DNA from: Malacoraja senta
Lineage: Eukaryota
Length of the DNA: 64,000 nucleotides
Reading direction: 5' to 3'
NCBI GenBank assembly: GCA_038087875.1
Contig: CM075995.1
Location: 6,512,001 to 6,576,000 of the forward strand
The first letter of the stretch is position 1. Every line of letters begins with the position of its first letter. The translations under genes were made by a program, and so were the position numbers. Positions 11,955-62,434 of this stretch are shown piece after piece. The notes under the pieces were generated by a model that was not told the origin of the DNA, made no database searches, and worked only from the letters and a program-made list of their open reading frames with translations.

Positions 11955-13360
11955 TCAAGTCAAGTCACATTTATTTATATAGCACATTTAAAAAAACAAC
12001 TCTCGTTGGACAAAGTGCTTTACATTTGTTATAAGAATAGTATAAACAACAAACTACCTACATATATACATGTAGCCCTCGCTCAGGGACGTCAAGAAAG
12101 CTTGGGAGTACCAGATAAGTTTTTAGTCTAGACTTAAAGGAGTCGATGGAGGGGCAGTTCTGATGGGAAGGGGGATGCTGTTCCACAGTCTAGGAGCTGC
12201 AACCGCAAAGGCGCGGTCGCCCCTGAGCTTATGCCTAAACCGCGGGATATTCAGCAACCCCAAGTCGGCCGATCTGAGGGACCTGGAGGTGGTGTGGTGG
12301 GTGAGAAGACTTTTAATGTAGGTGGGGGCAAGCCCATTGAGGGCTTTGTAGACATAGAGGAGGATCTTGAAATTTATTCGGAACCGCACAGGGAGCCAGT
12401 GGAGAGAGGCCAGGATCAGGGTGATGTGGTCCCTTTTTCGGGTGCCCGTCAGGAGTCTCGCTGCGGCGTTTTGGACCAGTTGCAAGTGGAACAGGGAAGA
12501 TTGGCTGATGCCAGTGTAAAGGGAGTTGCAGTAATCTAGGCGGGAGGAGATAAATGTGTGGATGCTCTTTTCGAGGTCATCAAACTGGAGGAATTGTTTT
12601 ATTTTAGCTATCGTCCAAAGCTGAAAGAAGCTAGCTTTTACCACGGCATTGACTTGTTTGTCAAATTTCAGTGCTGAGTCAAATATCACGCCAAGGTTTT
12701 TGACATGAGGTTTGAGTAGTGGGGTAAGGCTTCCAAGGCTGCCTGCTATCATTTTGATTGGGGCCGAGAAGGATGACCTCAGACTTACTCTTGTTTAGTT
12801 GGAGGAAGTTCTGGGCCATCCAACACTTTATATCCTTGAGGCAGTTGGTAAGGTTAAGCAGATTTGATTGGTTTTTGGGCTTCAGGGGGAGATAGAGTTG
12901 TGTATCGTCTGCGTAGCAATGGAAGGAAATGCCGTGCCTTTCAATGACTTGGCCTAAGGGGAGCATAAACAGGGAGAAGAGAATGGGGCCAAGGATGGAA
13001 CCTTGTGGAACCCCACAGCAGAGACTAGCTGGCGAGGAGAAAGAGTTGCCTATGTTAGTAGAGAAACTCCTACCTTTGAGGTAGGAGATGAACCAGCTCA
13101 GGGCAGTGCCATCAATACCAACCCCGTACCGGAGACGGTCAATTAGGATGGTGTGGTCGACAGTATCAAATGCTGCGCTGAGGTCAAGAAGGAGCAGGAT
13201 TGCACAGTCGCCGGAGTCAACGGTGAGCAGTAGGTCATTGTGTACCTTCAACAAGGCAGACTCTGTGCTGTGGTGAGCCCTGAAACCTGATTGGAAAGTT
13301 TCCAAGATAGTATTTTGGTGAAGGTAAGGCATAAGTTGACTTAAAATTACCTTTTCAAGG
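11955..13360 (-). mobile_element. L2-clade LINE RT/C-terminal fragment, frameshifted
   Basis: ORFs 12679-13332 (QSGFRAHHSTESAL, LLDLSAAFDTVDH, GVPQGSILGP, YADDTQLY) and 12123-12752 (SRLDYCNSL, LHWLPV, APRLWNS); (TTGAC)n tail near 11955-11970. Confidence 0.9.
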
Positions 13361-14199
13361 TAATGAAGTCCACAGATTCACCACCCTCTGACTAAAGAAA
13401 TTCCTCCTCATCTCCTTCCTAAAGGTACATCCTTTTATTTTGAGGCTACTGCCTCTGGTCCTGGACTCTCCCACTAGTGCAAACATCCTCTCCACGCCCA
13501 CTCTATCCAGGCCATCACTTTATAAGTTTATATTCATGTTCTAGAAGCAGAATTAGGCCATTCAACCCATCAAGACGACTCCGCCATTTAATCATAGCTG
13601 ATCTATCTTTCCCTCTTAACCCCATTCTCCTGCCTTCTCCCCATAACCCCTGACACCCATACTAATTACTTGAGTTTGACCTGATTGTATTCATAAATGG
13701 TATTATTTGATCTGATTCGATAGCAAGCATAACAAAAGCATTCACTGTACCTCAGTACACGTGACAATAATAAATTTAAACCTAAAACTCTCCCTCTCAT
13801 ACTTGGAAGATTTCTAACACTCAAATGGCAGGATCATTTCACACAGAGGGTGGAGGGTGCATGGAACGATCTGCCAGAGGAGGTAGTTGGGGCAGGTACT
13901 ATCCCAACACTTAAAAGACATTTGGACAAGTACATAGATAGGACAGGTTTAGAGGGATATGGGCCAAACGCAGGCAGGTGGGACTAGTGTAGCTGCAGCA
14001 TCTTGGTCAGCATGGGCAAGTTGGGCTGAAGGGTCTGTTTCCACGATCTGACTATGATAGCCTGAATATCGGAATCAATTCCCAGTCTAAAGAGTTATGA
14101 GATGATAGAACATTTTTGTCCTTCTAAGTGAGAAGGTTGAATCTTTAGGATTACCCATACACAGCAGAGTGAATGACTTCTTACAGGAGGATGTTTGGC

Positions 14200-16617: not shown

Positions 16618-18220
16618 CAGTGGCTTGCAAAAGTTTTCATACCCCTTGAACTTTTCCACATTTTGCCACGTTACAACCACAAACGTAAATGTATTTTATT
16701 GGGATTTTATGTGATAGACCAACACAAAGTGGTGCATAATTGTGAAGTGGAAGGAAAATGCTACATGGTTTTCAAATGTTTTTACAAATAAAAAACTGAA
16801 AAAGTGTGGCGTGCAAAAGTATTCAGCCCCCCTGAGTCAATACTTTGTAGAACCACCTTTTGCTGCAATTACAGCTGCAAGTCTTTTGGGGTATGTCTCT
16901 ACCAGCTTTGCACATCTAGAGACTTAAATTTTGCCCATTCTTCTTTGCAAAATAGCTCAAGCTCAGTCAGATTGGATGGAGAGCGTCTGTGAACAGCAAT
17001 TTTCAAGTCTTGCCAGAGATTCTCAATTGGATTTAGGTCTGGACTTTGACTGGGCCATTCTAACACATGAATATGCTTTGATCTAAACCATTCCATTGTA
17101 GCTCTGGCTGTATGTTAGGGTCGTTGTCCTGCTGGAAGGTGAACCTCCGCCCCAGTCTCAAGTCTTTTGCAGACTCTAACAGGTTTTCTTCCAAGATTGC
17201 CCTGTATTTGGCTCCATCCATCTTCCCATCAACTCTGACCAGCTTCCCTGTCCCTGCTGAAGAAAAGCATCCCCACAGCATGATGCTGCCACCACCATGT
17301 TTCACAGTGGGGATGGTGTGTTCAGGGTGATGTACAGTGTTAGGTTTCCGCCACACATAGCGTTTTGCATTTAGGCCAAAAACCTCAATTTTGGTCTCAT
17401 CTGACCAGAGCACCTTCCTCCACATGTTTGCTGTGTCCCCCACATGGCTTGTGGCAAACTGCAAATGGGACTTCTTATGGCTTTTTTTCAACAATGGCTT
17501 TCTTCTTACCACTCTTCCATAAAGGCCCGATTTGTGGAGTGCACGACTAGTAGTTGTCCTGTGGACAGATTCTCCCACCTGAGCTGTGGATCTCTGCAGC
17601 TCCTCCAGAGTTACCATGGGCCTCTTGGCTGCTTCTCTGATCAATGCTCTCCTTGCCCGGCCTGTCAGTTTAGGTGGACGGCCATGTCTTGGTAGGTTTG
17701 CAGTTGTGCCATACTCTTTCCATTTTCGGATGATGGATTGAACAGTGCTCCGTGAGATGTTCAAAGCTTGGGATATTTGTTTATAACCTAACCCTGCTTT
17801 AAACTTCTCCACAACCTGTCTGGTGTGTTCCTTGGGCTTCATGATGCTGTTTGTTCACTAATGTTCTCTAACAAACCTCTGAGGCCTTCACAGAACAGCT
17901 GTATTTATACTGAGATTAGATTACACACAAGTGGACTCTATTTACTAATTAGGTGACTTCTGAAGGCAATTGGTTGCACTGGATTTTATTTAGGGGTATC
18001 AGAGTAAAGGGGGCTGAATACTTTTGCACGCGACACTTTTCAGTTTTTTATTTGTAAAAAATTTGAAAACCATGTATCATTTTCCTTCTACTTCACAATT
18101 ACGTGCCACTTTGTGTTGGTCTATCACATAAAATCCCAATAAATTACATTTACGTTTGTGGTTGTAACGTGACAAAATGTGGAAAAGTTCAAGGGGTATG
18201 AATACTTTTGCAGGCCACTG
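16618..18220 (-). mobile_element. Tc1/mariner DNA transposon, Passport-like, near full length with IR/DR termini
   Basis: TA|CAGTGGCTTGCAAAAG...CTTTTGCAGGCCACTG|TA; ~215-bp TIRs with internal direct repeat tgcaaaagtattca; encodes a transposase. Confidence 0.95.
16837..17842 (-). pseudogene. Tc1 DD34E transposase with frameshifts
   Basis: MKPKEHTRQ...GRPPKL...WSDETK...QQDNDP, frameshift near 17115, then [15 protein letters not shown], second frameshift near 16925, ending AAKGGSTKY*. Confidence 0.9.
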
Positions 18221-19904: not shown

Positions 19905-21330
19905 ACATAGAAACATAGAAACATAGAAAATAGGTGCAGGAGTAGGCCATTCGGCCCTTCGAGCCTGCACCGCCATTCAATATGATCATGGCTGATCATC
20001 CAACTCAGTATCCTGTACCTGCCTTCTCTCCATACCCCCTGATCCCTTTAGCCACAAGGGCCACATCTAACTCCCTCTTAAATATAGCCAATGAACTGGC
20101 CTCAACTACATTCTGTGGCAGAGAATTCCACAGATTCACCACTCTCTGTGTGAAAAATGATTTCTCATCTCGGTCCTAAAAGACTTCCCCCTTATCCTTA
20201 AACTGTGACCCCTTGTTCTGGACTTCCCCAACATCGGGAACAATCTTCCTGCATTTAGCCTGTCCAACCCCTTAAGAATCTTGTAAGTTTCTATACGATC
20301 CCCCCTCAATCTTCTAAATTCTAGCGAGTACAAGCCGAGTCTATCCAGTCTTTCTTCATATGAAAGTCCTGCCATCCCAGGAATCAGTCAGGTGAACCTT
20401 CTCTGTACTCCCTCTATGGCAAGAATGTCTTTCCTCAGATTTGGTGACCAAAACTGTATGCAATACTCCAGGTGTGGCCTCACCAAGACCTTGTACAACT
20501 GCAGTAGAACCTCCCTGCTCTTATACTCAAATCCTTTTGCTATGAATGCTAACATACCATTCGCTTTCTTCACTGCCTGCTGCACCTGCATGCCTACTTT
20601 CAATGACTCGTAGCATCTCCCCTTTTCCTAATCGACCACCATTCAGATAATAGTCTACTTTCCTGTTTTTGCCACCAAAGTGGATAACCTCACATTTATC
20701 CACATTATACTGCATCTGCTATGCATTTGCCCACTCACCCAACCTATCCAAGTCACCTTGCAGCCTCCTAGCATCCTCCTCACAGCTAACACTGCCCCCC
20801 AGCTTTGTGTCATCCGCAAACTTGGAGATGTTGCATTCAATTCCCTCGTCCAGATCATTAATATATATTGTAAATAGCTGAGGTCCCAGCACTGAGCCTT
20901 GCGGTACCCCACTAGTCACTGCCTGCCATTCTGAAAAGGACCCGTTTACTCCTACTCTTTGCTTCCTGTCTGCCAGCCAGTTCTCTATCCACATCAATAC
21001 TGAACCCCCAATACCGTGTGCTTTAAGTTTGCATACTAATCTCTTATGTAGGACCTTGTCGAAAGCCTTCTGAAAGTCCAGATATAACACATCCACTGGT
21101 TCTCCCTTATCCACTCTACTAGTTACATCCTTGAAAAATTCTAGAAGATTCGTCAGACATGATTTACCTTTCATAAATCCATGCTGACTTTGTCCAATGA
21201 TTTCACCACTTTCCAAATGTGCTGCTATCCCATCTTTAATAACTGACTAGCATTTTCCCCACTACCGATGTTAGACTAACTGGTCTGTAATTCCCCGTTT
21301 TCTCTCTCCCTCCCTTTTTAAAAAGTGGGG
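19905..21330 (-). mobile_element. CR1 LINE RT and 3' end
   Basis: ORF 20719-21216 with [43 protein letters not shown]; (TTCTATGT)n tail at about 19905-19930. Confidence 0.9.
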
Positions 21331-30670: not shown

Positions 30671-32013
30671 TAGTTCTTGCTTTTGGCTTTTTTCCAATGA
30701 TAAATAGTTGTAGAATAGCTAGATGGTAGCTCTTTACAGGCCACTCTATTTGGAGAACTAGGAGCATGTCACAGAGTTGTTGTCCAACACTGAAAAGAGC
30801 CCTTCGGCCCACAATGTCAATGCAGACCATTTTGCCCACCTCCAATAGGTATTAGGTTTACCTCTCTTTCTTTCCTCCGCCCCATTTCTTGGAAATAAAG
30901 TGTTGAGTATAGAAGTTGGGAGGTCATGTTGTAGTTGTATAGGATGTTGGTGAGGAATGTTATAGGAAAGATGTCAAGCTGGAAAGGGTGCAGAGAAGAT
31001 GTACGAGGATGTTGCCAGGAATCGAGGGTCTGAGCTGTAGGGAGAGGTTAAGCAGGCTAGGACTCTATTCCTTGGAGCGCAGGAGGATGAGGGGTCATTT
31101 TATGGAGATGTACAAAATCATGAGGGGAATAGATTGGGTAAATACACAGAGTCTCTTGCCCACATAAGGGGAATCGAGAACCATTGGACATCGGTTTAAG
31201 GTGAGGGGTGGAATGATTTAATGGAAAACTGAGGGGTAACGTTTATACACAAAGGGTGGTAGGTGTATGGAACGAGCTGCCAGAGGAGGTAGTTGAGGCA
31301 GGGACTATCCCAATATTTAAGAAAAAGTGAGACAGGTACATGGATAGGACAGGTTTGGAGGGATATGGGCCAAATGCAGGCAGGTGGGACAAGTGTAGCT
31401 GGGACTTGTTGGTCGGTGTGGGCAAGTTGGGCCGAAGGGCCTGTTTCCACGCTATATGACTCTATGACTGCTGACAGGAAGGGAAGAGGCTATGTGTTTG
31501 TTTTTTTTAGTTTCGTTTATGGTCACGTGTACCAAGCTACAGTGAAAAGCTTTTTGTTGCGTGCTAACCAGTCAGCAGAAAGACAATTCATGATCAGGTA
31601 ACTGAACCATCCTACCAACAACTGGAGAGTGGTTCTGATCTATCATCTACCTCATTGAAGACCCTCGGACTATCTTTAATTGACCTTTACTGGATCTAAT
31701 CTTACACAAAACATTATTAGATTAGATTAGATTAGATTAGAATAACTATTCATGTTATTCCCTTTGAAATGTAATGGTACACTGCGAATGGCTCGATTGT
31801 AATCATGTATTGTCTTTCTGCTGACTGGTTAGCACGCAACAAAAGCTTTTCACTGTACCTCGATACACGTGACAATAAACCAAACTTAAACTAACTAAAC
31901 TAAGGGATGTAATGCTGAGGCTCTATGAGGCACTGCTCAGACCGCATTTGGAATATTATGAGTAGTTTTGGGCTTCATATCTGAGGAAGGATGTGCTGGC
32001 GTTGGAGAGGGTC

Positions 32014-32149
32014 TTCTTCTTTTGTGTGGCGTGCACAGCCTAAAGTTGTTGGACAACTTGTTCTATTTGATCTTCCGTTTGTCAACATCGAGTTGATTGC
32101 ATTAGTCGAAACAGGGCAGACCACGTGAAGGTTGCAATCTTCCACCCCA
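32014..32149 (-). mobile_element. 136-bp non-autonomous retro-insertion headed by an HDV-like ribozyme
   Basis: Flanked by GGAGAGGGTC (32004-32013) and GGAAAGGGTC (32150-32159) inside a CR1; minus strand ends ...cacacaaaaGAAGAA; no tRNA A/B boxes. Confidence 0.8.
32095..32148 (-). ncRNA. Minimal HDV/CPEB3-like self-cleaving ribozyme
   Basis: GGGGUGG(P1) AA GAUUGCA(P2) ACC(P3) UUCACGU(L3) GGU(P3') CUGCCCU(P1') GU UUCGA CUAA(J4/2) UGCAAUC(P2'). All nested double-pseudoknot pairings can be drawn. Confidence 0.8.
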
Positions 32150-32682
32150 GGAAAGGGTCCAGAGGAGGTTTACGAGAATGATCCCGGGAATGATTGGGTT
32201 AACGTGATGAACATTTGAAGGCACAGAGCCTGTACTCGCTGGAGTTTACAAGGACCTCACTGAGACTTACCAAGTTGTGAAAGGCCTGGAGAGTGTGGAT
32301 GTGGAGAGGATGTTTCCACTCGTGGGACAGTCTAGGAATAGAGGTCATAGCCTCAGAATTGTAAGGACGTGGCTTTAAAAAATAGACGAGGAGGAATTTC
32401 TTTAGTCACCGGGTGGTGAATCTGTGGAACTCATTGGCACCGACAGCTGTGGAGGCCAAGTCAATGGGTATTTACAGTGTAACGCAGAGATTGACAGATT
32501 CTTGATTAGTTGGGGGTTATGGGGAGAAGGCAGGAGAATGGGGTTGAGTGGGAAAGATAGATCAGCCATGACTGAATGGCGGAGTAAACTTGATGGGCCG
32601 AATGGCCGAATTCTGCTCCTACAACCTATGAAATTATGAGTGGTCTTGAGCTACTATCTACCTCATTGGAGACCCTCGGACT

Positions 32683-34145: not shown

Positions 34146-34219
34146 GTGGCGACAATTGATCCATCCACTCTCCTGCGTCGCCGACTTTTAACCGCGTACT
34201 CTCTTTGGTTGTGCCGCAG

Positions 34220-35210
34220 GTTTCGAGAGGAATGAACGGGACCGCTCAGATCGGCACGAGTGCCAAGAAGGGCCGCGAGGTGAGAGCCTCGCCGTCCAAG
34301 ACTGTGAAGTACACTGCAACGGTGACAAAGGGAAACGTTACTTACACCAAAGCCAAGAGAGAACTGGTCAAGGAGACCAGGCCGAACCACGTCAAGCCGA
34401 GTGTAGCCGTTAACCACACAACCTCAGGGAAAACAGAAAGCAACAATGCAAAATCCAGAAAACAGGTGCTATCCAGTGTGACGCCCCATCAAACCGGTGC
34501 TGGCCTCGGCTGCATCAAGCTCAACGGGAAGGTGAACGGGAGGGCATCTGCCAAAGGTGAAGTCAGAGAGATCAAAGAAGGACTACGGACATCCAAGCGG
34601 AGGCACGAGGAGTTCAAGCAGGTAGCGAAGCCGCCGTCGCCCTCGAAGAGGGTGAAAGGGGCGGGGGCCGAGAGTCACAAAGCAAACTCTAAAGAGAAGA
34701 CTCGACAGAACGGACGGATCAAGTGCGAGACTCCGGTGAAGAACAGCGAAAGGCAGAGGCTCAGGAAGGCTTCTCTAGGTAGGAACACTCCAAGCAAACA
34801 AGCACTGGGCAAATTGGAAAGTGCCTCCAGCGAATCTAGTTCTACCTCAGTGACAGAGTCCGCGAACAAGGCGCTCGACTCTCAGGCGAAACAGGAGAAG
34901 GGCGGCAAAACGGGCGCGGCGCCGGTGGGAGATGTCCCCGTGCTCAGGCCCAGCCACAAGGAGTTTCACGACCCGCTGGCCTACATGGAGGTTGTGAGAA
35001 CTCAGGCCGAGGGGTTCGGCATGTGCCGGGTGGTGCCTCCCGCGGACTGGCGGCCCGAGTGCAAGCTGAACGACGAGATGCGCTTCGTCACACAGATCCA
35101 ACACGTGCACAAACTGGGCCGGCGCTGGGGCCCCAACGTACAGCGGCTGGCCTGCATCAAGAAACACCTCAGATCTCAGGGCATTACCATAGAGGAACCC
35201 CCACTCATAG
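34220..35210 (+). CDS. jarid2: JARID2 large internal exon containing JmjN and the start of the ARID region
   Basis: Acceptor ccgcag|GTT, donor ATAG|gtaagc; 991 nt (phase 0 to phase 1). Contains [28 protein letters not shown], the JmjN motif [22 protein letters not shown]...[17 protein letters not shown], and [31 protein letters not shown]. Confidence 0.97.
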
Positions 35211-35516
35211 GTAAGCCATCCTCTGCGACGTGGCCGGCACAGCGCGCGCGTGTGGAACCCTATACCCATCGAGGGGAAGAACAAAGGAAGAGTCGGCGGA
35301 AAGACAAAACATGATTACAATCTAAGATAGGCACAAAATGCTGGAGTAACTCAGCGGGACAGGCAGCATCTCTGGAGAGAAGGAATGGGTGACGTTTCTG
35401 GTTGAGACCCTTCTGCAGACCCGACCCGAAACGTCAACCATTCCTTCTCTCCTACGACGCTGAGTTACTCCGGCATTTTGTGTCTCATCTTCGGTGTTAA
35501 CCAGCATCTGCAATCA

Positions 35517-52858: not shown

Positions 52859-54199
52859 CTGAATCTAGAGATGTGCGTTTTCACACTTCTGTCCCTCTTG
52901 CCTGATGGGAGAGGGGAGAAGAGGGAGTGGCCAGGGGTGCGACTGGTCCTTGATTATGCCGCTGGCCTTGTAGATGGAGTCAATAGAAGGGAGGTTGGTT
53001 TGTGTGATGGTCTGGGCCACGTCCACAACACACGTCCACTATGCTGGTGGCTTTGCCAAGGCAGCGTTAAGTGGAGTCAATGAAAGGGAGGCTAGTTCAG
53101 TTCAGTTTACGTAATCATCTTGTGTACCGAGGTACAGTGAAAAGCTTTAGTTGCATGCTAACCAGTCAACGGAAAGACTATACATGATTACAATTGAACC
53201 ATTTACAGTGTACAGATACATGATAAGGAAATAACGTTTAATGCAAGGTAAAGCCAGCAAAGTCTGATCAAGGATAGACCGAGGGTCCAATGAGTAGATT
53301 GAAGTTCAGCACTGCTCTCTGGTTGTGGTGGGATGATTCAGTTGCCTGATAACAGCTGGGAGAAGAGTTTGCGTGATGGTCTGGGCTATGTTCTCAACTC
53401 TCTTTCATTGTGCTGGTGGTCTTGCCGACGCAACGTGAACTGTAGATGGAATCAATGGAAGGGAGACACGAAATGCTGGAGCAACTCAGCGGGACAGGCA
53501 GCATCTCTGGAGAGAAGGAATGGGTGACGTTTCAGGTTGAGACCCTCGGAAGAAGGGTCTCGAACCAAAACGTCACCCATTCCTTCTCTCCGGAGATGCT
53601 GCCTGTCCCGCTGAGTTACTCCATCCAGCGTTTTGTGTCGGTTATCTTCAACGGAAGGGAGGTTGGCTTGCGTGATGATCTGGGCTGCATCCACAGCTGA
53701 TCAGCTCCTCAGCTGATCCACAGTAAGGTTTCTACTAAATGTCTTGTCATCGGTTTTCATTAAACAATATAGTCAAAATGAAACTATAACGCAGACCCAC
53801 TCCAGTTTGGGAAGAAATTGTGCCATATGACTTGGGAACTTTTGACTTTTTGACTTTGACATATGACTTTTCACCCAGAGAGTTGTGAATCGGTGGAATT
53901 CTCTGCCACAGAAGGCAGTGGAGGCCAATTCACTGGATGTTTTCAAGAGAGAGTTAGATTTAGCTCTTGGGGCTAATGGAATCAAGGGATATGGGGAGAA
54001 AGCAGGAATGGGGTACTGAATTTGGATGATCAGCCATGATCATATTGAATGGCGGTGCTGGCTCGAAGGGCCGAATGACCTACTCGGGCACCTATTTTCT
54101 ATGTTCTATGTTTCTATGTAACATTCTGCCATTATGCTGGTGGCCTTCCTGAGGCCGTGTTGTGTGCAGACGGAATATTGACGTCTTTCTCTGCCCTAG

Positions 54200-54687
54200 G
54201 AGGATGCGAGCTGGACCTGGCGCGGTTTTACCAGCTGATCAACGACATGGGCGGCATGCAGCAAGTGACGGACCTCAAGAAGTGGAGCAAGCTGGCGGAC
54301 CTCCTGCGGATCCCCAAGAGTGCACAGGACAGGCTGGCCAAGCTGCAGGAGGCCTACTGCCAGTTCCTCCTCTCCTACGACTCCCTGTCGCAGGAGGAGC
54401 ACCGGCGGCTGGAGCGGGAGGTGCTGAAGGAGAAGGAGAGCCTGGAGAAGAAGAAGGGCCCGCTGGAGGCCCACTCGGACAGCACCAACAAGTCCCAGAC
54501 CCTGCCCAGGTTCGAGCCAAAGAACGGGCTGGTCAACGGCCTGGTGCACAAAAACGGCTTCCGCAAGAGGCTGAAGGAGATCACGGACGCTGAGCTGAAG
54601 ACGGGCAGGCGGCGATTGTTCCCTCAGGAAAAGAAGAGTGAAGAAGACAACGAGGTTCTCAGCGACTTGTACAAGTGTACATACAAG
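54200..54687 (+). CDS. jarid2: JARID2 exon encoding the ARID domain
   Basis: Acceptor ccctag|GA completes [65 protein letters not shown]; donor AAG|gtgcgt; 488 nt (phase 1 to phase 0). Confidence 0.97.
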
Positions 54688-54799
54688 GTGCGTGCTCTCG
54701 AGGACGTTTTAGCACTCGGTTTTGGAGACACGGGGTGGAAACGGGCCCGCCAAGACTGCGCTGACCAGCGAAAACCTTTCGGACCTTTCGGACCTTGGA

Positions 54800-55190
54800 G
54801 CCAGTACCGCCATTCAATATGATCACGGCTGCTCATCCTAAATCTGTATCTTTCTCCCCATATCCCTTGATTCCATTAGCCCTAAGAGCTATATCGAACT
54901 CTCTCTTGAATACATCCAGTGAATTGGCCTCCACTGCCTTCTGAGGCATAGAATTCCACAGATTCACAACTCTCTGGATTAAGAGGTTTTTCCTCATCTC
55001 AGTCCTAAATGGCCTACCCCTTATTCTTAAACTGTAACCCCTGGTTCTGGACTCCCCCAACATCGGGAACATTTTTCCTGCATCTAGCCTGTCCAATCCC
55101 TTAAGAATTTTATATGTTTCTATAAGATCCCCTCGCAACCTTCTAATACTCCAGTGAATACAAGCCCAGTTGATCCATTCTTTCATCCCC
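54800..55190 (-). mobile_element. CR1 LINE 3' fragment
   Basis: ORF 54833-55192 with RGDLIETYKILKGLD...RVVNLWNS. Confidence 0.85.
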
Positions 55191-55394
55191 ATAGACTAGC
55201 ACTATCCTACACACTTTAGAGATACAATGCGGAAACAAGCCCTTCGGGCCAACGAGACTGTGCCGACCAGCGATCACCTCGTCACTTGCACTATCCTACA
55301 CACTTTAGACTTCAGAGATACAACATGGAAATTAGAGTTGATGGGTAGAATTGTTGCCTTACAGCAGAAGAGACCCGGGATAAGGTCCCACATA

Positions 55395-56505
55395 GGAGAT
55401 GCATTTGATAAGATTCCACATGGGAGATTGGGCAAAATTAGAGCACATGGTATTGGGGGTAGAGTGCTGACATGGATAGATAATTGGTTGGCAGACAGGA
55501 AACAAAGAGTAGGGATTAACGGGTCCCTTTCAGAATGGCAGGCAGTGACGAGTGAGGTACCGCAAGGCTCGGTGTTGGGACCGCAGCTATTTACAATATA
55601 CATCAATGATTTAGATAAAGGGATTAAAAATAACATTAGCAAATTTGCAGATGACACAAAGCTGGGTGGGAGTGTGAACTGTGAGGAGGATGCTATGAGA
55701 ATGCAGGGTGACTTGGACAGGTTGGGTGAGTGGGCAGATGCATGGCAGATGCAGTTTAATGTGTATAAGTGTGAGGTTATCCACTTTGGTGGCAAAAACA
55801 GGAAGGCAGATTATTATCTAAATGGTGTCAAGTTGGGAAAAGCAGAAGTACAACGGGATCTGGGGTCCTTGTTCATCAGTCAATGAAAGTAAGCATACAG
55901 GTACAGCAGGCAGTGAAGAAAGTAAATGGCATGTTGGCCTTCATACCAAAAAGGAATTATAGGAGCAAAGAGGTCCTTCTGCAGTTATACAGGGCCCAAT
56001 TGAGACCACACCTGGAGTATTGTGTGCAGTTTTGGTCTCCCAATTTGAGAAAAGACATTCTTGCTATTGAGAAAGAGTGCAGCCTAGGTTCACGAGGTTA
56101 ATCCCCGGGATGGCGGGATTGTCATATTTTGATAGAATGGAGCGGCTGGGCTTGTATACTCTGGAATTTAGGATGAGAGTGGATCTTATTGAAACGTATA
56201 AGATTATTATGGGTTTGGACACACTAGAGGCAGGAAACATGTTCCCAATATTAGGGGAGTCCAGAACAGTTTAAGAATAAGGGGTAAGCCATTTAGAACG
56301 GAGATGAGGAAAAACTTTTTCGCACAGAGAGTTGTGAGTCTGTGGCATTCTCTGTCTCAGAGGGCAGTGAAGGCTGGCTCTCTGGATGCTTTCAAGAGAT
56401 TCAGGGGATATGGGGAGAAGGCAGGAATTGGGTATTGATTGTGGATGATCAGCTATGATCACATTGAATGGCGGTGATGGCCTACTCCTGCACCTATTGT
56501 CTATT
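55395..56505 (+). mobile_element. CR1 LINE RT and 3' end
   Basis: [37 protein letters not shown]; frameshifted; tail present. Confidence 0.88.
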
Positions 56506-58477: not shown

Positions 58478-59881
58478 CAGTGTCCTCAATAATGTTTGGG
58501 ATATATATTTCTTTGCCTCTGTACTCCACAATTTGAGATTTTGTAATAGAAAAAAATCACATGTGGTTAAAGTGCACATTGTCAGATTTTATTAAAGTGT
58601 ATAAAAATAGCCTTTATTAAAATTATTGAAGGTACTGGCTCACTTATCTTCATGGATGATACAACTGCTGATGGTAGTAGCGTAATGAATTCTGAAGTGT
58701 ATAGACACATCCTATCTGCTCAAGTTCAAACAAATGCCCCAAAACTCATTGGCCGGCGGTTCATTCTACAGCAAGACAATGATCACAAACATACTGCTAA
58801 AGCAACAAAGGAGTTTTTCAAAGCTAGAAAATGGTCAATTCTTGAGTGGCCAAGTCAATCACCCGATCTGAACCCAATTGAGCATGCCTTTTAGATGCTG
58901 AAGAGAAAACTGAAGGGGACTAGCCCCCAAAACAAGCATAAGCTAAAGATGGCTGCAATACAGGCCTGGCAGAGCATCACCAGAGGGGCGGCACGGTGGC
59001 GCAGCGGTAGAGTTGCTGCCTTACAGTGAATGCACTGCCGGAGACCCGGGTTCGATCCTGACTACGGGTGCTGTCTGTACGGAGTTTGTACGTTCTCCCC
59101 GTGACCTGCGTGGGTTTTCTCCGAGATCTTCGGTTTCCTCCCACGCTCCAAAGATGTACAAGTATGTAGGTTAATTGGCTTGGTAAATGTAAAATTTGTC
59201 CCTAATGGGTATAGGATAGTGTTAATGTGCGGGGATCGCTGATCGGCGTGGATCCGGTGGGCCGAAAGGGCCTGTTTCCACGCTGTATCTCTAAAAAACT
59301 AAAAGACACTCAGCAACTGGTGATGTCCATGAATCGCAGACTTCAAGCAGTTATTGCATGCAAAGGATATGCAACAAAATAATAAACAAGACTACTTTCA
59401 TTTACATGACATTGCTGTGTCCCAAACATTATGGTGCCCTGAAATGGGGGGACTATGTATAAACACTGCTGTAATTTCTACATGGTGAAACCAACCTTCC
59501 TCACAATGCTGTGTACGACAGTGATCGCAACTTCTACTGAAGTGTGAATGGCCGTTGGCTCGCTAGAAGCTCATCTGCCCTTTGACAAGTCTTGTTTTTG
59601 GTCCTGCTGGGGGTCCACAGCCCCCTCCTCACCTGGCAAACCAGGTGGGGGAGACGGCTTAGTCACCAACTGTCTGAGCAGGTAGCACGGGATCACATGG
59701 TACCCGTGGCGGGGGGAACTCCCCCGACCAAAATGTATAAAAATAGCCTTTATTAAATTCTGACGATGTGCACTTTAACCACATGTGATTTATTTTTCTA
59801 TTGCAAATCTCAAGTTTTGGAGTACAGAGGTGAATATATATAAATGATGGGTCTTTGTCCCAAACATTATGGAGGGCACTG
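58478..59881 (+). mobile_element. Internally deleted Tc1 copy of the 35517 family with two nested insertions
   Basis: TA|CAGTGTCCTCAATAATGTTTGGG...CCCAAACATTATGGAGGGCACTG|TA. Only the C-terminal transposase part remains ([23 protein letters not shown]). Nested V-SINE at about 58986-59303 and an insert at 59495-59726. Confidence 0.88.
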
Positions 59882-60965: not shown

Positions 60966-61389
60966 GTAGGAGCGTGTAGCATTGTATGTCAGTCTGGCGT
61001 TACCTTTCATTGACACATCGCAGGCCGAGCCAGCGGACGGAGCAACAGTTTATAGTCATAGGGCGCGGAAACAGGCCCTTCCACCCAAGTACCCAATGCT
61101 CTTGCCCAGAGTAGGGGAATCGAGGACCAGAGGACATAGGTTTAAGGTGAAGGGGAAAAGATTAATAGGAATCTGAGGGGCAACTTGGCCACAAGTCTTC
61201 ATTCCTATCGTCCAAATCATTAATATACAACGTGAAGAGTAGTGGCCCCAGCACCGACCCCCGCGGAACTCCGCTAGTCACTGGCAGCCAGCCAGAGAAA
61301 GCCCCCTTTATTACCACTCTTAGCCTCCTGCCATCCAGCCAACCTGCTATCCATGCTTTGATACCATGGGCTATCATCTTCCTTAGCAG

Positions 61390-61570
61390 TTTAAGAAGGA
61401 ACTGCAGATGCTGGAAAATCGAAGGTACACAAAAATGCTGGAGAAACTCAGCGGGTGCAGCAGCATCTATGGAACGAAGGAAATAGGCAACGTTTCGGCC
61501 GAAACGTTGCCTATTTCCTTCGATCCATAGATGCTGCTGCACTCGCTGAGTTTCTCCAGCAGTTTTGTGT
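61390..61570. mobile_element. Fold-back Penelope-tail insertion with 14-bp TSD
   Basis: ATCTTCCTTAGCAG at 61376-61389 and 61571-61584; palindrome centre ggcaacgtttcggccgaaacgttgcc. Confidence 0.8.
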
Positions 61571-62434
61571 ATCTTCCTTAGCAGCCTCACTTCTGGCACC
61601 TTATCAAAGGCTTTCTGAAGATCTAAGTGAACAACATCTACTGACTCTCCTTTGTCTGTCCTGCTATTTACTTCTTCAAAGAATTCCAGAAAATTTGTCA
61701 AGCAAGACCTCCGCTTCACAAAGCCATGCTGACTTTGGCCTATTTTATCGTGAACTTCTAAGTACTCCGTAACCTCATCCTTTATAATGGACTCTAAAAT
61801 CTTACCAACCACCAAAGTCAGATGAACTGGCCTATAGTTCCCACTATTCTGCCTTGCTCCCTTCTTTTGCAGCGGGGTAATATTAGCCATTGGCAATCTC
61901 TAGTGATTCTTGAAATATCACTGTCAATGCCTCCATAATCTCTTAAGCCATCTCTTTCAGAACCCTGGGGTGCAGTCCATCTGGTCCAGGTGACTTGTTC
62001 ACCTTTAGCCCTTTCAGTTTCCCAAGCACCTTCTCCCCAGTAATAGCCACTCCACTAACTTCCACCCCCTGACTCTCTTGAATTTTGGGCATTTTGCTGG
62101 TGTCTTCCACTGTGAAGCTGATGCAAAAAAGTTATTCAACTCCACTGCCATTTCTTTATTTCCCCATTACCACTTCTCCTGCATCATTCTCCAGCAGGTC
62201 CAATGTCCACTCTTGCCTCTTTCTTACTCTTTAAATAACTGAAGAAACTCTTGCTATCCTCTTTTACATTTATGGCGAGCTTACCTTCGTAGTTCATCTT
62301 TTCTCCCCGTATTGCTTTTTTAGTTACCTTCTGTTGTTCTTTAAAAGCTTCCCAATCCTCTGGCTTCCCACTAATCTTTGCCACATTGTACGCCTTCTGT
62401 TTTAGTTTTATACTGTCCTTGAATTCCCTTGTTA

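What the first reader, a model, noticed from the sequence alone, without database searches (positions are those of the whole stretch)
32004..32159. 136-nt mini-retroelement whose 5' end is a minimal HDV/CPEB3-like ribozyme
Seen: the insert splits a CR1 and is bounded by a 10-bp duplication with one mismatch. On the - strand it starts (U)GGGGUGG and the first 54 nt fit the HDV fold: P1 GGGGUGG/CUGCCCU opening with G1-U, perfect 7-bp P2 GAUUGCA/UGCAAUC, P3 ACC/GGU, L3 UUCACGU, P4 reduced to a UUCG loop, and J4/2 CUAA with the catalytic C. The predicted cleavage site is within 1 nt of the element boundary. About 80 nt of unrelated sequence and a (GAA)n tail follow, with no Pol III boxes. Established: the CPEB3 ribozyme has L3 UUCACGU followed by GU after P1; HDV-like ribozymes process the 5' ends of R2, RTE and L1Tc retrotransposons; short-repeat tails and TSDs are typical of RTE-clade insertion. 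Inference: this is a promoter-less SINE-like family that cuts itself out of host read-through transcripts and borrows a LINE RT. I do not know of a description in cartilaginous fish but cannot check. This copy is antisense to JARID2.
Basis: partly seen in the sequence, partly recalled or inferred. Interest (0 to 1): 0.92.

Follow-up and report, generated by a model that had tools for sequence, protein, structure and literature searches.

The report
Ribozyme-headed short retrotransposon family
A 135-base jumping-gene copy in a skate-like fish genome begins exactly at the predicted cut site of a hepatitis-delta-type self-cutting RNA, and it is a shrunken derivative of an RTE-type retrotransposon that carries the same RNA module at its head, a known way for such elements to free themselves from host transcripts.

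Summary
Window 32014-32148 (- strand) is a 135-nt insert with a (GAA)n tail. It is flanked by a 10-bp duplication with one mismatch and splits a LINE ORF fragment. Its first 54 nt fit the full HDV-like double-pseudoknot topology.

It is a family. The genome holds 1063 exact matches to a 33-nt core of the module, against 0 for the reversed control. In 19 of 25 copies with a clean target-site duplication, the duplication ends at the base just before G1. G1 is the predicted cleavage site.

I found the partner. It is an RTE-type LINE (endonuclease plus reverse transcriptase, ORF running into a ~25-nt 3' UTR plus (GAA)n). It carries the same 54-nt module at its 5' end and shares its last 43 nt with the short element. 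Older short copies are exactly LINE 5' (~97 nt) joined to LINE 3' (~45 nt).

Four distant RTE relatives in metagenome contigs carry HDV-like ribozymes upstream of their ORFs. Their helices differ but stay complementary.

Weak points: Rfam scores the window module at only 14.2 bits (threshold 44), there is no compensatory covariation inside the family, and cleavage is untested.

The parts
32150..32159 (-). Upstream copy of the target-site duplication (gaccctttcc)
   Evidence: Read directly. It matches 32004-32013 with one mismatch.
32149..32149 (-). One extra T between the duplication and G1. It is the -1 base, not part of the element or of this copy's duplication.
   Evidence: In other copies the -1 base varies (T, C, A, G) and belongs to the duplication.
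32095..32148 (-). 54-nt HDV-like ribozyme module. P1 32142-32148 with 32113-32119. P2 32133-32139 with 32095-32101. P3 32130-32132 with 32120-32122. L3 32123-32129. P1.1 32125-32126 with 32111-32112. Linker replacing P4 32106-32110. J4/2 CUAA 32102-32105, with the putative catalytic C at 32105.
   Evidence: Descriptor parse. Rfam RF02682 aligns full-length, model 1-74, at 14.2 bits, exactly over 32095-32148. The same module sits at the 5' end of the RTE-type LINE.
32057..32094 (-). 38-nt middle segment, a diverged remnant of the LINE 5' UTR that follows the ribozyme
   Evidence: Only 22-26 of 38 nt identical to five older-subfamily copies, against 49-52 of 54 for the ribozyme. Older copies match the LINE 5' UTR here.
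32014..32056 (-). 3' module shared with the LINE: the end of the LINE ORF (its TAG stop lies in CTTTAGG), the short 3' UTR and the (GAA)n tail
   Evidence: BLAST query positions 94-136 match the LINE 3' ends in L084-L087 at 86-91%. The ORF ends ...STLDLQL*.
32004..32013 (-). Downstream copy of the target-site duplication (gaccctctcc)
31890..32400 (+). Older LINE fragment (C-terminal part of ORF2) that the element inserted into. The ends given are approximate.
   Evidence: The translated flanks join across the insert. They resemble LINE ORFs seen in L051 and L053.
34160..35311 (+). Host gene exon (open frame containing the exon) with a JmjN domain. The host gene is Jumonji/JARID2 and the element is antisense to it.
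   Evidence: Pfam JmjN at 48.3 bits. Hits named protein Jumonji, 90% to a skate record. ARID exon at 54079-54819 on the + strand.

Best explanation
The insert is one copy of a high-copy, non-autonomous non-LTR retrotransposon that arose by internal deletion of an RTE-type LINE in this genome. Both the LINE and its short derivative begin with a 54-nt, P4-less HDV-like self-cleaving ribozyme.

Inferred mechanism. The element has no promoter of its own. A copy lying in sense orientation inside some host or transposon transcript is read through. The ribozyme folds and cuts immediately 5' of G1, which releases an RNA that starts at G1. The RTE reverse transcriptase recognises the shared 3' end (last ~43 nt plus GAA repeats) in trans and copies the RNA into a nicked target by target-primed reverse transcription. 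Because the RNA is only ~135 nt, reverse transcription usually reaches the 5' end. New copies therefore start exactly at G1 and are flanked by 8-15-bp duplications.

Shown here: the family, the G1 boundary, the shared 5' and 3' modules, the partner's EN and RT domains, and the fold.
Inferred: catalysis, read-through transcription and trans-mobilisation.

The window copy itself lies antisense to JARID2 and carries about five private substitutions. It is most likely an inert descendant.
For: 1. Family size. 1889 first-look candidates; all 40 scored are 96-100% identical over positions 1/2-136. 1063 exact matches to a 33-nt ribozyme core, reversed control 0.

2. 5' boundary. Of the 30 best copies, 25 have an exact 7-mer-anchored duplication. 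In 19 it ends at -1. In 5 it runs 1-2 nt into the G run, which is ambiguous. In 1 it ends at -2. Five, including the window copy, have no exact anchor. L008 and L009 share the same flanks. Older copies L032, L034, L035, L038, L043, L047 and L050 also start at G1, read by eye.

3. Fold. All elements of the HDV topology are present. In 724,968 strand-bases the descriptor hits 45 family sites, out of the 64 full-length instances listed, and 1 other site.

4. Rfam. RF02682 aligns end to end over exactly these 54 nt, with ACUAA on the model's GCUAA.

5. Partner.
- 285 hits to the 3' anchor with a non-SINE upstream, mostly LINE 3' ends whose ORF ends ...STLDLQL* in CTTTAGG.
- L084 holds ribozyme, then 5' UTR, then ATG, then endonuclease, then RT, then the same 3' end.
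- Pfam Exo_endo_phos_2 at 28.2 bits and RVT_1 at 37 bits.
- Homologues are ~1000-aa EN+RT proteins on 3.2-3.4-kb contigs.
- Published RTE features match: a single ORF, an extremely short 3' UTR of repeat units, and (GAA)2GA in HmRTE-e01 (PMC2887409, abstract and passages).
- 10 LINE 5' ends carry the module. 1 is complete, 1 lacks one G and 8 are 5'-truncated.

6. Selective conservation. Ribozyme 49-52 of 54 nt identical, 3' module 36-38 of 43, middle 22-26 of 38, between one young copy and five old copies.

7. Relatives. Four independent RTE relatives carry HDV-like ribozymes upstream of the ORF: L102 (RF02682, 41.6 bits), L111 (30.9 bits), L120 (descriptor only) and L150 (RF00622, 55.6 bits). 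Their P1, P2 and P3 sequences differ, while L3 UYCACGY and J4/2 CUAA are conserved.

8. Literature. RTE and baggins elements carry HDV-like ribozymes and lack their own promoters (PMC6765202, passages).
Against: - The Rfam score is far below threshold: 14.2 bits against 44, E 0.67 even on 71 nt. The CPEB3 and HDV models gave no match at E <= 10.
- Within this genome's family there is no compensatory change. 0 of 19 pairs changed on both sides, and the shuffles equal the observed values. The only changes are one-sided: U5.G32 versus U5-A32 (16 to 15) and G6-C31 versus G6.U31 (22 to 6).
- The helices of the relatives were found with a descriptor that demands pairing, so that comparison is partly circular. 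Only three of the four are backed by an Rfam model.
- Nested MFE folding of the element is unremarkable: z +0.47, and 136 of 200 shuffles fold as well. That program cannot see pseudoknots.
- P4 is reduced to 5 nt, and the activity of so short a eukaryotic variant is untested.
- No RNA 5'-end data could be obtained.
- No intact ORF of the ribozyme-bearing LINE family appeared among the 45 candidates scored.
- No LINE-type copy carries the young subfamily's 3' tail variant: 0 matches, against 83 for the LINE's own tail. The current partner of the young subfamily is therefore unresolved.
Confidence: 0.8

Rival explanations
1. The 5' module is a conserved structured RNA of the RTE family that does not self-cleave. 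It could be a protein-binding or translation-initiation element, or an internal promoter such as Pr77 of L1Tc. The G1 boundary would then reflect a transcription start or the end of the template.
For: The Rfam score is sub-threshold. There is no compensatory covariation within the family. P4 is missing. HDV-like modules in R2 and L1Tc are also reported to act in protein binding, IRES-like translation and, for Pr77, as a promoter (PMC6765202 passages; PMC3383444 abstract).
Against: Every catalytic-core feature is present: the G1.U wobble, P1.1, L3 identical to the Rfam CPEB3 consensus, and the C of CUAA. Relatives of the same LINE clade carry modules that come close to or exceed Rfam ribozyme thresholds at the same place. 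Extra roles would add to cleavage rather than replace it.
Confidence: 0.12
2. It is an ordinary Pol III-driven SINE with a tRNA-, 7SL- or 5S-derived head. Its 5' end is a Pol III start, and the HDV-like fold is coincidence.
For: Copy number, size, target-site duplications and a LINE-like 3' tail are all SINE-like.
Against: ARAGORN finds no tRNA. Rfam finds no tRNA, 7SL or 5S match at E <= 10. The head is the 5' UTR of the protein-coding LINE itself. The descriptor's chance rate is about 1 weak hit per 725 kb of strand.
Confidence: 0.03
3. The short copies are not a separate replicating lineage. They are sporadic by-products, for example deletions after insertion or template switches during LINE retrotransposition.
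For: Template jumps and deleted forms are known for R2 (PMC3414825 abstract). Variants with extra deletions exist.
Against: More than 1000 copies share the same junctions. There are distinct subfamilies with diagnostic changes. The 40 best young copies are 96-100% identical to the window copy and carry their own duplications. They outnumber copies holding the LINE 5' region, of which there were 30 candidates.
Confidence: 0.03

Closest known systems
HDV-like ribozymes at the 5' ends of RTE, baggins, R2 and L1Tc non-LTR retrotransposons. The primary paper, Ruminski et al. 2011, is not held; I know it through review PMC6765202 (passages).
   Same: A 5'-terminal double-pseudoknot ribozyme on a promoter-less APE-type LINE. 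The element's 5' end coincides with the cleavage site. Co-transcription followed by self-release is the proposed role.
   Different: Here the ribozyme has no P4 (54 nt), the host is a cartilaginous fish, and most copies belong to a 135-nt derivative rather than to the LINE.
SIDEs, the short internally deleted elements of R2 (Eickbush and Eickbush 2012, PMC3414825, abstract)
   Same: A 5' ribozyme joined to the 3' end of the parent LINE, with no ORF and mobilised in trans. The older subfamily here is exactly LINE 5' (~97 nt) plus LINE 3' (~45 nt).
   Different: R2 SIDEs are rare and specific to rDNA. This family is dispersed, has at least 1000 copies, derives from an RTE, and its young subfamily has a remodelled middle segment.
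NARTc / L1Tc Pr77 hallmark of Trypanosoma cruzi (PMC3383444, abstract)
   Same: A non-autonomous derivative shares the autonomous LINE's 5' HDV-like ribozyme.
   Different: Pr77 is also an internal promoter. No promoter function is indicated or tested here. The LINE clade and the host kingdom differ.
Minimal P4-less HDV-like ribozymes, including theta ribozymes (Kienbeck et al. 2024, PMC10879173, one passage)
   Same: No P4 domain; a core of about 50-60 nt.
   Different: Those come from metagenomes and gut phages, and the passage says their origin and function remain to be determined. This one has a defined eukaryotic retrotransposon context.
Mammalian CPEB3 ribozyme (Rfam RF00622)
   Same: L3 UUCACGU, GU after P1, P1 starting GGGG, and J4/2 of the form C-N-AA, when compared with the Rfam consensus printed.
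   Different: The RF00622 model gives no match to the window module at E <= 10. P1, P2 and P3 sequences differ and P4 is absent. CPEB3 is a single-copy intronic ribozyme.

Membership tests
HDV-like (drz) self-cleaving ribozymes | Nested double pseudoknot in the order P1, P2, P3, L3, P3', P1', P1.1, (P4), J4/2, P2' | tested here: met
   The descriptor parse finds all helices: 7-bp P1, 7-bp P2, 3-bp P3 and 2-bp P1.1. The chance rate is 1 weak non-family hit in 724,968 strand-bases.
HDV-like (drz) self-cleaving ribozymes | G1 at the cleavage site, closing P1 with a G.U wobble, and a C in J4/2 (the feature list is recalled from the field) | tested here: met
   G1.U36 is present. C44 of CUAA aligns with the C of GCUAA in the RF02682 consensus.
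HDV-like (drz) self-cleaving ribozymes | Score at or above the gathering threshold of a curated Rfam model (RF00094, RF00622, RF02682 or the drz families) | tested here: not met
   The best match is RF02682 at 14.2 bits against 44. No other ribozyme model matched at E <= 10. Rfam models cannot score P2 or P1.1 and they penalise the missing P4.
HDV-like (drz) self-cleaving ribozymes | Covariation supporting the helices | tested here: inconclusive
   Within the family, 0 of 19 pairs show compensatory change. Across four RTE relatives, P1 positions 5-7, all of P2 and P3 differ but stay complementary. That parse requires pairing. Three of the four relatives are backed by Rfam hits.
HDV-like (drz) self-cleaving ribozymes | Site-specific, divalent-ion-dependent self-cleavage | not testable with these tools
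   This needs in vitro transcription. The only indirect support is that genomic 5' ends fall at G1.
RTE-clade LINE (the partner) | A single ORF with an AP endonuclease and a reverse transcriptase, no separate ORF1, about 1000 aa in about 3.2 kb | tested here: met
   In L084 a short 5' UTR leads straight into the endonuclease. Pfam finds EN and RT. Homologues are 950-1040 aa on 3.1-3.5-kb contigs. The copies I hold are degenerate.
RTE-clade LINE (the partner) | An extremely short 3' UTR ending in simple-repeat units, with short target-site duplications (PMC2887409) | tested here: met
   The stop TAG is followed by ~25 nt and then (GAA)n. Duplications are 8-15 bp.
RTE-clade LINE (the partner) | Placement inside the RTE clade in an RT phylogeny with reference elements | not tested
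   No named reference RTE sequences were available to me, and source names were uninformative.
SIDE-type non-autonomous element | 5' ribozyme plus 3' end of the parent LINE, no coding capacity, insertion hallmarks of the parent | tested here: met
   Older subfamily copies equal LINE nt 1-~97 joined to the last ~45 nt. The window's subfamily keeps both ends and has a diverged middle.
Classical Pol III SINE | A head derived from tRNA, 7SL or 5S with an internal promoter | tested here: not met
   No tRNA. No such Rfam match at E <= 10. The head is the LINE's own 5' UTR.
CPEB3 ribozyme family (RF00622) | Match to the RF00622 model at or above 35 bits | tested here: not met
   No match at E <= 10. 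Only L3 and the adjoining bases are shared with the consensus.

The most novel reading that the evidence does not exclude
The 5' ribozymes of RTE-clade retrotransposons may form one old lineage, with core L3 UYCACGY and J4/2 CUAA. That lineage would include both the P4-less skate module and sequences that Rfam scores as 'mammalian CPEB3 ribozyme'. One such sequence (55.6 bits against a threshold of 35) sits at the head of a degenerate RTE copy in an invertebrate-like metagenome contig (L150).

If so, two things follow. The mammalian CPEB3 ribozyme would be an exapted 5' end of an RTE insertion, which would supply the outgroup that a 2021 study said was lacking. Eukaryotic retrotransposons would also be one natural home of 'minimal' P4-less HDV-like ribozymes.
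Probability: 0.3. Interest if true: 0.8.

Novelty: new member of a known kind. Interest (0 to 1): 0.5.

Why it matters
This is a clean, genome-scale natural experiment. More than a thousand insertions record where the element's RNA began, and they point to the predicted ribozyme cut site.

It adds three things:
- a vertebrate (cartilaginous fish) example of the ribozyme-plus-RTE strategy;
- evidence that a 54-nt core without P4 has been retained, nearly unchanged, through several waves of amplification;
- a SINE-like family whose head is a ribozyme rather than a Pol III promoter.

For annotation, such families would be misfiled as orphan SINEs unless the LINE's 5' end is checked. Sense-oriented intronic copies could also cut host pre-mRNAs.

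The side observation of a CPEB3-model match at the head of an invertebrate-like RTE copy bears on where the CPEB3 ribozyme came from.

Tried and rejected
1. RNA 5' ends from public runs. All 24 runs offered were kept as contigs. I laid four of them. The table of molecule starts and ends was empty, and contigs cannot show ends. This is no evidence either way.

2. Nested MFE folding of the element gave z +0.47. It is uninformative for a pseudoknot.

3. Rfam, run on two stretches, returned only the sub-threshold RF02682 match.

4. Covariation within the family: none.

5. Three loci with the ribozyme but a non-SINE downstream sequence. L031/L053 is an old short copy with a 5'-truncated CR1-like LINE nested in it, marked by a 5-bp AATCA duplication and the outer duplication gctagttggcc. 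It is not a partner. L037/L051 and L045/L052 show no LINE ORF of this family in sense downstream of the ribozyme within 9.9 kb and remain unexplained.

6. A LINE-type copy with the young subfamily's tail variant: 0 matches, against 83 for the positive control.

7. An intact ORF of the ribozyme-bearing LINE: none among the 45 candidates scored. That search ran with a stricter first look, so absence is not shown.

8. The Ruminski 2011 paper is not held.

9. Earlier notes of this scan on this genome or sequence: none.

10. Literature searches combining HDV-like ribozyme with shark, SINE, skate, elasmobranch or cartilaginous fish found no description of such an element. The only paper holding 'HDV-like', 'ribozyme' and 'shark' was an R2 survey, seen as a listing only. 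Dfam and Repbase could not be searched.

The 5'-end sample of the LINE is therefore 10 copies, and no further family copies could be cut out.
Full report
**What is there.**
On the - strand the window reads: duplication gaccctttcc (32159-32150), one T (32149), then a 135-nt body from G1 (32148) to ...AAAGAAGAA (32014), then gaccctctcc (32013-32004). The flanks on the + strand translate as one continuous LINE ORF2 C-terminal region interrupted by the insert. The window holds only this one copy.

The host gene runs on the + strand. Its JmjN exon is at 34160-35311 and its ARID exon at 54079-54819. The best named relatives are protein Jumonji of a skate (90%), then rays, sharks and a chimaera.

**The fold.**
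The first 54 nt parse into the complete HDV-type topology:
- P1 GGGGUGG with CUGCCCU, opening with G1.U36;
- J1/2 AA;
- P2 GAUUGCA with UGCAAUC;
- P3 ACC with GGU;
- L3 UUCACGU;
- a two-pair P1.1 (A23-U38, C24-G37);
- five linker bases where P4 would be;
- J4/2 CUAA.

As a chance control I ran the same descriptor over 724,968 strand-bases (the window and the 95 genome loci then held, both strands). It hit 45 family sites, out of the 64 full-length instances listed. It hit only one unrelated site, which had a 5-bp P2.

Rfam aligns its F. prausnitzii HDV model end to end over exactly 32095-32148. The score is only 14.2 bits against a threshold of 44 (E 3.8 on 401 nt, 0.67 on 71 nt). The CPEB3 and HDV models gave nothing at E <= 10. 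Rfam models cannot score P2 or P1.1, and they penalise the missing P4. Nested MFE folding is unremarkable (z +0.47).

**It is a family, and copies begin at G1.**
The genome (1.94 Gb) gave 1889 first-look candidates. All 40 that were scored are 96-100% identical over positions 1/2-136. A 33-nt core of the ribozyme has 1063 exact matches (534 + 529), and the reversed control has none.

I examined the 30 best copies; L008 and L009 share the same flanks. Twenty-five have a duplication anchored by an exact 7-mer:
- in 19 it ends at the base just before G1;
- in 5 it runs one or two bases into the G run, as expected when the next genomic base happens to be G;
- in 1 it ends at -2.

Five copies, the window's among them, have no exact anchor. 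With one mismatch allowed, the window copy's duplication ends at -2. The -1 base varies and belongs to the duplication. Older copies read by eye (L032, L034, L035, L038, L043, L047, L050) show the same boundary.

The sample is biased towards copies resembling the window copy, because only the best matches are scored.

**The partner.**
Searching for the element's 3' anchor preceded by non-SINE sequence gave 285 matches (control 0). Most are the 3' ends of a LINE whose ORF ends ...AVLAWMSTLDLQL*. Its TAG stop lies inside CTTTAGG, followed by about 25 nt and (GAA)n. The short element shares its last 43 nt with this LINE.

One long copy (L084) reads, in sense: ribozyme (lacking its first 9 nt), about 40 nt also found in older short copies, about 40 nt more, ATG, an AP-endonuclease start, reverse transcriptase, and the same 3' end. 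Pfam confirms Exo_endo_phos_2 (28.2 bits) and RVT_1 (37 bits). Homologues are about 1000-aa EN+RT proteins on 3.1-3.5-kb contigs.

These features match published RTE-clade features: a single ORF, an extremely short 3' UTR made of repeat units, (GAA)2GA in HmRTE-e01, and 6-12-bp duplications (PMC2887409, abstract and passages). I did not build a phylogeny.

The LINE-specific 5' region has only 30 candidates in the genome. Of the 10 LINE 5' ends I could read, one has the whole module, one lacks a single G and eight are 5'-truncated.

Older short copies are exactly LINE nt 1-~97 joined to the last ~45 nt. That is the build of the R2 'SIDEs' (PMC3414825, abstract). The window's younger subfamily keeps both ends but has a remodelled middle. 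Against five older copies, the ribozyme is 49-52 of 54 identical, the 3' module 36-38 of 43 and the middle 22-26 of 38.

**Covariation.**
On 31 distinct sequences, 0 of 19 pairs show changes on both sides, and shuffles match the observed values.

The lineage-level changes are one-sided and keep pairing: U5-A32 in the LINE and old copies against U5.G32 in young ones (15 to 16), and G6-C31 against G6.U31 (22 to 6). The remaining lineage difference, A8/G8, lies in unpaired J1/2. U31, which the window copy has, is rare. It appears in 4 of the 100 rows listed. In laid contigs of three runs, C is the majority at that place: 38949 of 40596, 90555 of 93835 and 2645 of 2744 depth units.

**Relatives elsewhere.**
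I scanned metagenome contigs with an alignment of 12 homologues and kept 80 loci. Four independent RTE relatives carry an HDV-like ribozyme on the sense strand upstream of the ORF:
- L102: RF02682 at 41.6 bits, 43 nt before the ATG.
- L111: 30.9 bits, 143 nt before the ATG of an open 992-aa ORF.
- L120: descriptor only.
- L150: RF00622 at 55.6 bits. L151 and L152 are the same locus, 99.9% identical.

Their helices differ from the skate's and from each other while staying complementary:
- P1 positions 5-7: UGG, AAG, GCC, UAC.
- P2: GAUUGCA, GGCAUCG, UAGCAGAA, GGUAAUUC, GGUAGAUC.
- P3: ACC, GCG, GCU.

L3 (UYCACGY) and CUAA are kept. Their P4 regions are 15-24 nt against 5 nt here.

Two caveats apply. 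The parse demands pairing, and other descriptor hits in those loci look like chance: they have a different L3, or lie on the wrong strand or in the wrong place. The 16 loci that reach the N-terminus and were scanned with Rfam (L150 was scanned separately) gave 2 Rfam hits and 1 descriptor hit.

**How it most likely works.**
As summarised in review passages (PMC6765202), RTE and baggins elements carry HDV-like ribozymes, lack promoters and depend on read-through transcription. R2's ribozyme also propagates SIDEs. The data here fit that scheme:
- read-through of a sense-oriented copy;
- self-cleavage 5' of G1;
- recognition of the shared 3' end by the RTE protein in trans;
- target-primed reverse transcription to the end of a very short template.

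This yields copies that start at G1. Catalysis, transcription and trans-mobilisation are all inferred.

Open points remain. No intact ORF of this LINE family appeared among the 45 candidates scored, whereas other RTE families in the genome have open 1008-1014-aa frames. No LINE-type copy carries the young subfamily's tail variant: 0 matches, against 83 for the control.

**Novelty.**
The kind is known. What is new is the host group and the combination of features: an RTE-derived SIDE-like family of at least 1000 copies headed by a P4-less core. I found no description for cartilaginous fish in two library searches, and Dfam and Repbase could not be checked. Minimal P4-less HDV-like ribozymes were described from metagenomes and phages, with origin and function called undetermined (PMC10879173, passage).

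**Side observation.**
L150's ribozyme exceeds the Rfam threshold for the 'mammalian CPEB3 ribozyme'. It sits at the head of a degenerate RTE copy whose closest named relatives are echinoderm proteins. A 2021 paper states that the CPEB3 ribozyme had not been found outside mammals (PMC8233481, passage). I did not follow this further.

Noticed in passing
L150 3606-3689 (+); the same locus as L151 and L152: Rfam's 'Mammalian CPEB3 ribozyme' model (RF00622) scores 55.6 bits (threshold 35, E 8.9e-13). The hit ends about 310 nt upstream of the first aligned residue (97) of a degenerate RTE-type ORF in a metagenome contig. The closest named relatives of that ORF are echinoderm proteins. A 2021 paper says this ribozyme had not been found outside mammals.
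   Followed up: partly
window 32092-32148, seen in contigs of runs X1 and X7: Some contigs show a ribozyme (nt 1-57) followed after 11 other letters by a second start at G1. This is a tandem, two-headed arrangement (read laying joint 'goes back 57'; depth 254 in X1).
   Followed up: no
L084, L088, L091 (LINE 5' ends): Three of ten LINE 5' ends begin at the same place, position 9 of the module, so they lack exactly the 5' strand of P1. This could be a preferred stop of reverse transcription at the folded ribozyme, or it could be chance.
   Followed up: no
L053 146-3540: An old short copy contains a nested, 5'-truncated CR1-like LINE (ORF1 C-terminus plus an EN-RT ORF of 781 aa). The nested insertion lies just after the ribozyme and has a 5-bp duplication AATCA. 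The outer duplication gctagttggcc is intact.
   Followed up: yes
G000, several contigs (table): The genome holds other RTE families, 38-49% identical to P0001. Some of them have open frames of 1008-1014 aa with no internal stop, so they may still be coding. Whether they carry 5' ribozymes was not examined.
   Followed up: no
L051 (from L037) and L052 (from L045): In two loci a complete ribozyme is followed by sequence unrelated to the short element. No LINE ORF of this family follows in sense within 9.9 kb. They may be other ribozyme-headed elements or rearranged copies.
   Followed up: partly
window 17063-17854 (-), 58571-58891 (+), 12682-13377 (-), 20722-21246 (-), 55200-55883 (+), 61165-61899 (-): The JARID2 introns in the window are packed with other transposon remnants. 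There are Tc1/mariner-type transposase HTH and DDE_3 pieces and several reverse-transcriptase fragments.
   Followed up: no
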